From Octopus sinensis (Eukaryota), in contig NC_043020.1 of NCBI RefSeq assembly GCF_006345805.1, positions 23,188,001-23,252,000 of the forward strand: a stretch of 64,000 nt of DNA, in the 5' to 3' direction. Within the stretch, counting starts at the first letter, position 1, and each line of letters begins with the position of its first letter. This document shows, in pieces, positions 53,115 through 53,890 of this stretch. A program made the translations under genes and the position numbers. Under the pieces are notes generated by a model. The model did no database searches. It was given only the letters and a program-made list of their open reading frames with translations, and had not been told where the DNA came from.

Positions 53115-53890
53115 AGGCGACGAGTTGTGGCAGAATCGTTAGCACACCGGGCGAAATGTTTAAAGATATTTGGTCTGCCACTACGTTTTGAGTTCAAATT
53201 CTACCGAGGTCGACTCTGCCTTTCAACCTTTCGGGGTTGATTAAATAAGTACCAGTTAGACACTGGTGTCGATGTAATCGACTTAATACATTTAGTCTGT
53301 CCTTCTTTGTCCTCTCTGTGTTTAGACCCTTGTGGGTAATAAAGAAATTGGTATTTCGCCCGTCGCTACGTTCTGTGTTCAAATTCCGCCGAGGTCGACT
53401 TTGCCTTTCATCCTTTCGGCGTCGATTCAATAAGTACCAGTTACGCACTGGGGTCGATATAATTGACTTAATCCGTTTGTCTGTCCTTGTTTGTCTCCCC
53501 TGTGTTTAGCCCCTTGTGGGTAGTAAAGAAATAGGTATTTCGCCTGTCTTTACGTTCTGAGTTCAAATTCCGCCGAGGTCGACTTTGCCTTTCATCCTTT
53601 CGTGGTCGATAAATTAAATACCAGTTACGCACTGGGGTCGATATAATCGACTTAATCCGTTTGTCTGTCCTTGTTTGTCCTCTCTGTGTTTAGCCCCTTG
53701 TGGGTAATAAAGAAATAGGTAGTTCGCCTTGCGCTACGTTATGAGTTCAAATTCCGCCGAGGTCGACTTTTTCTTTCATCCATCCGGCGGTTGATAAATT
53801 AAGTATTAGTTGCGTACTAGGGTCGATCTAATCGACTGGCCCTCTCTCCGCAAAATTTCGAGTTTTATACCTAGAGTATTAAAGAATATT
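53115..53890 (+). mobile_element. SINE-A nested array: three Tx1-tailed units plus a terminal native-tail unit
   Basis: Restarts at GGTA(T/G)TTCG at ~53350, ~53534 and ~53718. The last unit ends GATCTAATCGACTGGCCCTCTC...CTAGAGTA. Confidence 0.9.

What the first reader, a model, noticed from the sequence alone, without database searches (positions are those of the whole stretch)
53115..53890. A SINE carrying a Tx1-type 3' tail appears to home into its own family, building nested ~183-bp arrays
Seen: SINE-A has two tails. The native tail is ...ATCGACTGGCC(C)TCTCC...CTAGAGTA. The alternative tail is TTTGTCTGTCCTTGTTTGTCC...GCCCCTTGTGGGT(A/G)TAAAGAAATA. In the arrays at 380-1587, 5296-5665, 53115-53890 and 59591-60350, alternative-tail units come first, the next unit restarts almost always at GGTATTTCG between the A and B boxes, and the last unit has a native-type tail. 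Established: several Tx1-clade LINEs are sequence-specific (Dewa targets tRNA arrays, Keno U2 snRNA, Kibi/Koshi microsatellites), and SINEs borrow LINE 3' ends. Inference: a Tx1-tailed SINE-A is mobilised by a Tx1 enzyme that cuts the SINE-A head, so the SINE carries its own target and self-stacks. I do not know of this being described.
Basis: partly seen in the sequence, partly recalled or inferred. Interest (0 to 1): 0.9.

Follow-up and report, generated by a model that had tools for sequence, protein, structure and literature searches.

The report
SINE inserting into its own family
A short jumping element in this octopus-like genome often lands inside older copies of itself at one fixed position, the same position that a related long jumping element cuts, which likely builds thousands of stacked 184-base arrays and would be a self-targeting route from scattered repeats to tandem repeats.

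Summary
Largely confirmed. 53114-53888 is a SINE head, three units with the alternative tail and one native-tailed unit, each restarting at SINE position 50 (GGTATTTCG). Genome-wide, 22,202 of 91,341 exact tails are followed by that site. New evidence: an L1/Tx1-type LINE with a homologous tail splits SINE-A at exactly this site. All 29 LINE 3' ends examined enter at position 50, and 20 of 20 full-length copies carry a 16-bp duplication (positions 50-65) whose first base matches on both sides. The SINE does the same: 13 of 16 rare unresolved junctions show a whole SINE between positions 65 and 50 of another copy. Most events are seamless and add one 184-bp unit, likely because the cDNA anneals to the duplicated sequence, as R2 does. 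Corrections: about two-thirds of tailed copies insert elsewhere; arrays often end in an alternative tail (37 of 70); 17 of 140 neighbours are tandem duplicates; homing depends on subfamily. That this LINE's enzyme moves the SINE is inferred, and the Tx1 label is untested by phylogeny. Not found in the papers searched or in this scan's notes.

The parts
53114..53349 (+). First unit: SINE-A head (A box, 13-bp hairpin 33-62, B box), body and alternative tail ending AAAGAAATT
   Evidence: 7 differences from the majority in positions 1-49, 12 in 66-168
53350..53533 (+). Unit 2: SINE position 50-233, alternative tail
   Evidence: differs from unit 3 at 9 of 103 body positions
53534..53717 (+). Unit 3: position 50-233, alternative tail; youngest-looking (3 differences in 66-168)
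53718..53888 (+). Terminal unit: position 50 to native tail; likely remainder of the original target copy
   Evidence: shares the uncommon C59 (24 of 418 units) with units 2 and 3, inside the duplicated 50-65 zone
516..1358 (-). Internally deleted copy of LINE-A (the SINE-A-targeting L1/Tx1-type LINE), inserted at an array junction with position-50 sequence on both sides
1359..1587 (-). Full-length alternative-tailed SINE-A upstream of the LINE-A remnant
380..515 (-). Native-tailed SINE-A remainder restarting at position 50
5296..5665 (+). Dimer: old head and alternative-tail unit, then native unit from position 50
5680..6125 (+). Second array (two tailed units and a cut third), abutting an inverted SINE-A head at 6123-6206
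59591..60350 (+). Array with a G45/C50 head, two near-identical internal units and a last restart at position 17
29775..30007 (-). Alternative-tailed monomer in unique DNA with a 15-bp target duplication: the tailed SINE is an independent mobile unit
27084..27294 (-). Alternative-tailed monomer followed by (TA)n
34152..39529 (+). LINE-B: related L1/Tx1-type LINE inside the A box of a second SINE (SINE-B), 16-bp duplication at 34136-34151 and 39530-39545; shares 28 of 30 nt with the 5' half of the alternative tail
7069..9400 (-). LINE-C: 3' part of a third related LINE with a similar tail, followed by (TATC)n

Best explanation
The arrays are SINE copies inserted into older copies of the same SINE at position 50, likely by the enzyme of an L1/Tx1-type LINE that cuts that site, with each event likely resolved by homology so that it adds exactly one 184-bp unit. 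SHOWN: LINE-A inserts into pre-existing SINE-A copies with a 16-bp duplication of positions 50-65; whole alternative-tailed SINEs also sit in SINE-A with that duplication; the SINE tail is homologous to LINE-A's tail; and each junction (tail|GGTATTTCG) is again a usable site. INFERRED: LINE-A proteins (probably an older subfamily) bind the SINE RNA by its tail, nick the bottom strand at 49/50 and prime reverse transcription. The top strand is cut after 65. Because the SINE cDNA contains positions 50-65 itself, the 3' overhang anneals to it and second-strand synthesis starts inside the element. The extra head is then trimmed, or exchanged with the target's head. A minority of arrays later grew by unequal crossing-over.
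For: LINE-A: 29 of 29 LINE 3' ends are followed by SINE position 50 (the 30th hit was a SINE; 187 matches genome-wide). 20 of 20 full-length copies have SINE sequence up to about 65 upstream and position 50 downstream. Base 50 matches on both sides in 20 of 20 (11 C/C, 9 G/G; p=6e-6). An older subfamily has its 5' end at the same site in 12 of 14 loci. ORF2 is endonuclease + RT + zf-RVT and ORF1 has a CCHC knuckle. SINE: 71 genome matches of target-then-fresh-head, and 13 of 16 fetched have the full [..50-65][whole SINE][50..] layout, 3 of them a C50 element inside a G50 target. When base 50 after a tail is C, the array head is C50 in 6 of 10 against 13 of 70 (p=0.01). The native-type T65 appears in the first unit of 5 of 33 native-ended arrays against 0 of 88 others. 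Terminal native units are more diverged than first units in 29 of 33 (p=5e-6). 118 of 140 neighbours differ by more than 3%. About 26 arrays against about 8 other GGTAT sites among 98 tails, where background GGTAT is about 3.9 million: my estimate is at least 60-fold enrichment. R2 gives the same mix of seamless 'anneal' and duplicated 'join' junctions (PMC11371274 passages).
Against: About two-thirds of tailed copies are elsewhere, whereas LINE-A is strictly site-specific. The SINE tail most like LINE-A's (CAAT) rarely homes: 382 of 22,202 junctions. Tail followed by C50 is only 243 against 22,202 with G50, though 48 of 100 listed heads are G45/C50 and young LINE-A enters C50 copies in 17 of 29. 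C50 copies are younger (3.0% vs 4.9%, p=0.03), which explains part of this. Sharing of rare variants in the duplicated zone is modest: 24 of 108 at 50-80 against 22 of 357 further on, and 8 of 81 against 13 of 291 with one pair per array. Array heads often come from the incoming element (G45/C50 in 6 of 33 native-ended arrays, 0 of 34 non-alternative monomers), and head divergence does not track the terminal unit (rho 0.07). Within one native subfamily the age gap is not significant (15 arrays, p=0.055). No LINE with exactly the SINE tail was recognised among the 100 of 154 matches listed, judged from 6 upstream bases only.
Confidence: 0.78

Rival explanations
1. Whole multimers are transcribed by read-through from a limited number of master arrays and retroposed as units (dimeric SINE model); homing only seeded the masters.
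For: The majority SINE has no TTTT terminator. Target duplications flank 19 of 37 alternative-ended arrays, similar to 28 of 51 monomers. Heads are often of the incoming type. First units are enriched for one subfamily, and terminals for CAAT tails or one native subfamily.
Against: Flanking duplications are equally expected if a monomer was invaded. Terminal natives are about twice as diverged as first units (0.091 vs 0.049) with no correlation between them. There are many different first/terminal subfamily pairings. Unresolved nested insertions exist at dozens of loci.
Confidence: 0.12
2. Arrays are mainly DNA-level tandem duplications (SINE-derived satellites) made by unequal crossing-over or slippage.
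For: 17 of 140 neighbours differ by at most 1.1%, against 0.1% of 5,000 random pairs. Long arrays of 7-10 units look homogeneous. 65-bp head repeats have also expanded at some join loci.
Against: It cannot put an alternative tail in front of a native unit. Breakpoints are fixed at 50 or 17. 118 of 140 neighbours differ by more than 3%. The four units at 53114-53888 differ at 9-20 of 103 body positions.
Confidence: 0.05
3. The SINE has only a loose GGTAT/TATAT/AGAAA preference, and SINE-A is hit because it is abundant; LINE-A's specificity is unrelated.
For: Duplications in unique DNA start with GGTAT, GATAT, TATAT or AGAAA.
Against: My estimate is at least 60-fold enrichment over background GGTAT, and the nested SINEs share LINE-A's top-strand position (after 65) and 16-bp duplication.
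Confidence: 0.05

Closest known systems
SINEU and Tx1-Mar of crocodilians (Kojima 2015, PMC4494074; passages, abstract and section 16 read)
   Same: SINEs mobilised in trans by target-preferring Tx1 LINEs, sharing their site; specificity weaker in some SINE families (13-23%) than in others (90%); different Tx1 families inferred for different SINEs.
   Different: The target is another element (Mariner-N4), and tandem SINEU-3 copies sandwich a TSD. Here the target lies inside the SINE's own head, so insertions are seamless and regenerate the site.
Target-specific Tx1 LINEs: Tx1L in Tx1D, Keno in U2, Kibi/Koshi in microsatellites (as stated in PMC4494074); Dewa near tRNA genes (recalled, original not seen)
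   Same: Two-ORF APE/RT LINE with one multicopy target and a fixed duplication length.
   Different: The targets here are Pol III-type heads of two SINE families (LINE-A: SINE-A position 50; LINE-B: A box of SINE-B).
R2 'anneal' versus 'join' 5' junctions (PMC11371274; passages read)
   Same: Sequence shared by template and target gives mostly seamless junctions and a minority with the shared part duplicated; the template's 3' tail anneals to the downstream target.
   Different: R2 is an RLE element in rDNA, and the shared sequence was engineered at the template end. Here it is internal to a natural SINE, so annealing drops the head and yields a tandem unit.
Tandem SINE multimers in the bivalve Scapharca broughtonii (PMC11481361; passages) and SINE-derived satellites of squamates (PMC10702118; passages)
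   Same: First unit with a full head, internal units cut at a fixed head position, last unit with a complete tail, one TSD around all.
   Different: The passages read invoke unequal recombination, and 'Tx1' occurs 0 times in either main text. There the internal tails are truncated; here internal units carry a complete, different, LINE-derived tail.

Membership tests
Tx1-clade LINE (LINE-A) | ORF2 with AP-type endonuclease and RT; ORF1 with CCHC knuckle | tested here: met
   PF03372, PF00078, PF13966 (just under its cut-off), PF00098
Tx1-clade LINE (LINE-A) | Belongs to the L1/Tx1 group rather than R2, RTE or CR1 | tested here: met
   best solved match is L1 ORF2p (E 7e-64 over residues 6-868), R2 at 2e-20; RTE and CR1 did not appear among the hits
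Tx1-clade LINE (LINE-A) | RT phylogeny with named Tx1 elements | tested here: inconclusive
   none of 120 listed homologues or 8 clusters carries a Tx1 name; no tree was built
Tx1-clade LINE (LINE-A) | Sequence-specific target with a fixed duplication | tested here: met
   29 of 29 and 20 of 20
tRNA-derived SINE with LINE tail | tRNA-like head with A and B boxes | tested here: inconclusive
   Boxes seen by eye; ARAGORN 0 and Rfam 0 matches
tRNA-derived SINE with LINE tail | High copy number, monomers with target duplications | tested here: met
   91,341 exact tails; duplications in 28 of 51 monomers
tRNA-derived SINE with LINE tail | 3' tail shared with a LINE | tested here: met
   aligns with the tails of LINE-A, B and C (mean column identity 71%); no exact match found
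SINE-derived satellite | Units within an array homogenised, closest to one another | tested here: not met
   17 of 140 neighbours near-identical, 118 differ by more than 3%
Dimeric SINE amplified as a unit | Fixed left/right pairing of equal age | tested here: not met
   unequal, uncorrelated divergence and many pairings; small sample, so a minority of such events is not excluded

The most novel reading that the evidence does not exclude
Target choice is inherited through RNA. With no terminator, each SINE transcript runs into its 3' flank, and that flank pairs with the nicked target. Copies sitting before GGTATTTCG therefore breed copies that home into SINE-A, while other lineages go to AGAAA or TATAT sites. 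The compensatory G45/C50 change in the head hairpin would then be an escape from self-insertion that the young LINE-A subfamily has since caught up with: an arms race between a SINE, its own progeny and its LINE.
Probability: 0.25. Interest if true: 0.9.

Novelty: new variant of a known kind. Interest (0 to 1): 0.74.

Why it matters
It closes a loop not seen in the papers searched: the LINE's safe target is a SINE family, that SINE carries a LINE-like tail, and so it is likely driven into its own copies. This gives a retrotransposition route from interspersed to tandem repeats with fixed breakpoints, and may explain similar SINE multimers in bivalves now put down to recombination. It also offers tens of thousands of natural records of how a LINE 5' junction is resolved (anneal versus join), an open step in non-LTR integration. 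It shows that at least two LINE families here use SINE heads as targets, and it matters for annotating a very abundant repeat in such genomes.

Tried and rejected
ARAGORN and Rfam found no tRNA match for the head. A search for a LINE with exactly the SINE tail gave 154 matches; the 100 listed look mostly like SINE copies with internal duplications, and their flanks were not seen. The simple prediction that neighbours share nearly all variants in positions 50-65 failed: sharing is raised but low. The prediction that the head is as old as the terminal unit was weak (0.095 vs 0.074-0.077, no correlation). Laying four public runs on the array to look for unit-number polymorphism was uninformative, because more than 200,000 family contigs per contig run swamp the locus and no piece spans it. 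Homologue names gave no clade label. This scan's notes held nothing on this genome and one unrelated note elsewhere. Template jumping between native and alternative RNAs was considered and set aside, because it would not give target-matched bases on both sides. Paper searches for prior description; none described this. Kojima and Fujiwara 2004, Ohshima and Okada 1994, Repbase and Dfam were not seen and may hold these families. No supplements were read.

Full report
OBSERVATION. The window is G000:C24:23188001-23252000 in a 2.72-Gb genome. I read it as an octopus from the recalled SINE type and a 62%-identical Argonauta protein; this is inference. 53114-53888 holds a SINE head, three alternative-tailed units and a native-tailed unit, with restarts at SINE position 50; TRF gives period 184. 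The units differ at 9-20 of 103 body positions, so this is not a recent duplication. Units 2-4 share C59, found in 24 of 418 units. Of 12 tails in the window, 8 are followed by position 50, 1 by position 50 plus a LINE remnant, 1 by position 17 and 2 by other DNA.

GENOME-WIDE COUNTS. The exact 24-nt tail occurs 91,341 times, and 22,202 are followed by AGGTATTTCG. Among the first 100 listed (98 distinct contexts, all from the start of C1), 33 restart at position 50, 5 were classed at position 17 (one is in fact unique DNA), 7 at (AT)n, 1 in SINE-B, 11 at other GGTA and 41 other (two of the 41 are SINE-A restarts my rule missed). The tailed SINE is a normal mobile element: 28 of 51 monomers have 9-23 bp duplications. 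In 651 kb, part of it chosen for arrays, 162 of 196 restarts after a tail are at 50/51, 11 at 54-55 (likely alignment trimming), 15 at 17-19 and 8 elsewhere.

A LINE THAT CUTS THE SAME SITE. The insert at window 516-1358 belongs to a LINE family (LINE-A). In 12 of 14 other loci its 5' end lies at SINE-A position 50-65 (two of these loci are near-duplicates). Its tail aligns with the SINE's alternative tail. A tail pattern that stops before the target gave 187 matches; of the first 30, 29 are LINE and all 29 are followed by position 50. Twenty were extended (20 of the 29, chosen mostly among the 99%-identical young copies). All 20 are about 5.35 kb with SINE sequence to about position 65 upstream; 19 follow a head and 1 follows an array junction. 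Base 50 is the same on both sides in 20 of 20 while the heads are diverged, so these are insertions into pre-existing copies with a 16-bp duplication. Positions 57-65 upstream often follow the LINE rather than the target, which suggests a homology-assisted 5' junction (inference). ORF2 has endonuclease, RT and zf-RVT domains and is closest to L1 ORF2p in the PDB. The Tx1 label rests on architecture and target specificity, not on a tree.

THE SINE DOES IT TOO. A pattern for target position 50-62 followed by a fresh head gives 71 matches, some of them tandem runs at one locus. Of 16 single loci fetched, 13 show a whole tailed SINE followed by position 50; 1 is followed by other DNA and 2 lack an intact tail in view. 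In 3 of the 13 a C50 element sits in a G50 target. Such 'join' products are under 1% of junctions, and the rest are seamless. Target-derived bases still show in seamless arrays: C50 after the tail goes with a C50 head in 6 of 10 (11 arrays, one without a head) against 13 of 70, and T65 occurs in 5 of 33 first units of native-ended arrays against 0 of 88. Terminal native units are more diverged than first units in 29 of 33.

MECHANISM. Shown: site, duplication length, tail homology, nested whole copies. Inferred: nick at 49/50, priming on the SINE tail, top cut after 65, annealing of the overhang to the cDNA's own 50-65, and loss or exchange of the surplus head. Later collapse of the two adjacent 65-bp heads by recombination would give the same product and cannot be told apart here. 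Either route explains why heads are often of the incoming type. R2 shows the same anneal/join split (PMC11371274 passages). Position 49/50 is the loop-stem boundary of a predicted 13-bp hairpin. Positions 45 and 50 co-vary as a pair (48 G/C, 51 T/G, 1 T/C among 100 listed of 43,291).

RESULTS AGAINST. Most copies are not in SINE-A. TAAT tails are followed by GGTA in 11 of 13, CAAT tails in 0 of 18. CAAT makes only 382 of 22,202 junctions, though it is the tail most like LINE-A's. C50 targets are rare for the SINE (243) but common for young LINE-A (17 of 29). Age explains part: C50 monomers are younger and CAA tails older. Several partners (LINE-A, B, C) or RNA read-through pairing could explain the rest. 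Rare-variant sharing is only modestly raised near the junction, and 17 of 140 neighbours are near-identical, so tandem duplication adds units. The age gap is not significant within one native subfamily. All SINE samples come from the first 22 Mb of C1 plus the window, except the C50 and join loci.

COMPARISON AND NOVELTY. Closest is SINEU/Tx1-Mar, where the target is another element and tandem copies sandwich a TSD (PMC4494074). Bivalve SINE multimers have a similar layout, discussed as recombination products (PMC11481361), and squamate SINE satellites are treated as tandem repeats (PMC10702118). Passages of PMC13282606, PMC4758252 and PMC3747384 do not describe it. Nine searches found no account of a SINE homing into its own head; subscription papers and Repbase were not covered. 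Verdict: real, a new variant of Tx1-type targeted SINE mobilisation; confidence 0.78, interest 0.74.

Noticed in passing
window 34152-39529 (+); L131-L150, L055: LINE-B is followed by the same A-box site of SINE-B in 21 of 21 3' ends (the query held about 6 nt of target, a mild bias, and one row is the window copy). A tailed SINE-A sits at nearly the same site in L021. A second SINE-targeting LINE family.
   Followed up: partly
window 7069-9400 (-); three more tails: LINE-C with a related tail is followed by (TATC)n in 3 of 4 copies seen: a likely microsatellite-targeting family.
   Followed up: partly
G000:C1:195358956-195359246, C7:15322785-15323080, C18:40399009-40399169, C3430:1377-2207: Tandem runs of the 65-67 bp head (positions 1-65), likely expanded from join-type junctions (coordinates only).
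   Followed up: no
window 60181 and 15 of 196 restarts: Second restart site at SINE position 17 (AGAAACG, in the A box), often after CAAT or CAGT tails; its enzyme is unknown.
   Followed up: partly
window 52684-53000 (-): Open frame resembling the C-terminal restriction-like endonuclease of an R4/NeSL-type element (recalled motif; no Pfam hit), on the opposite strand just upstream of the array and separated by (ATT)n.
   Followed up: no
window 6123-6206, 295-480; L163, L177, L198, L200: Inverted SINE-A copies often abut arrays, forming palindromes.
   Followed up: no
window junctions 53533/53534 and 53717/53718: The tail end GAAATA is the reverse complement of target positions 52-57 (TATTTC), so each junction is a small palindrome mimicking the head hairpin.
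   Followed up: no
L013, L156 (SINE) and L176 (LINE-A): Short slippage duplications at the 3' junction; in L156 and L176 they include the first target base(s), a hint that the RNA extends into the target.
   Followed up: no
window about 43580-43680: Run of N (assembly gap) inside a (TCTA)n tract.
   Followed up: no
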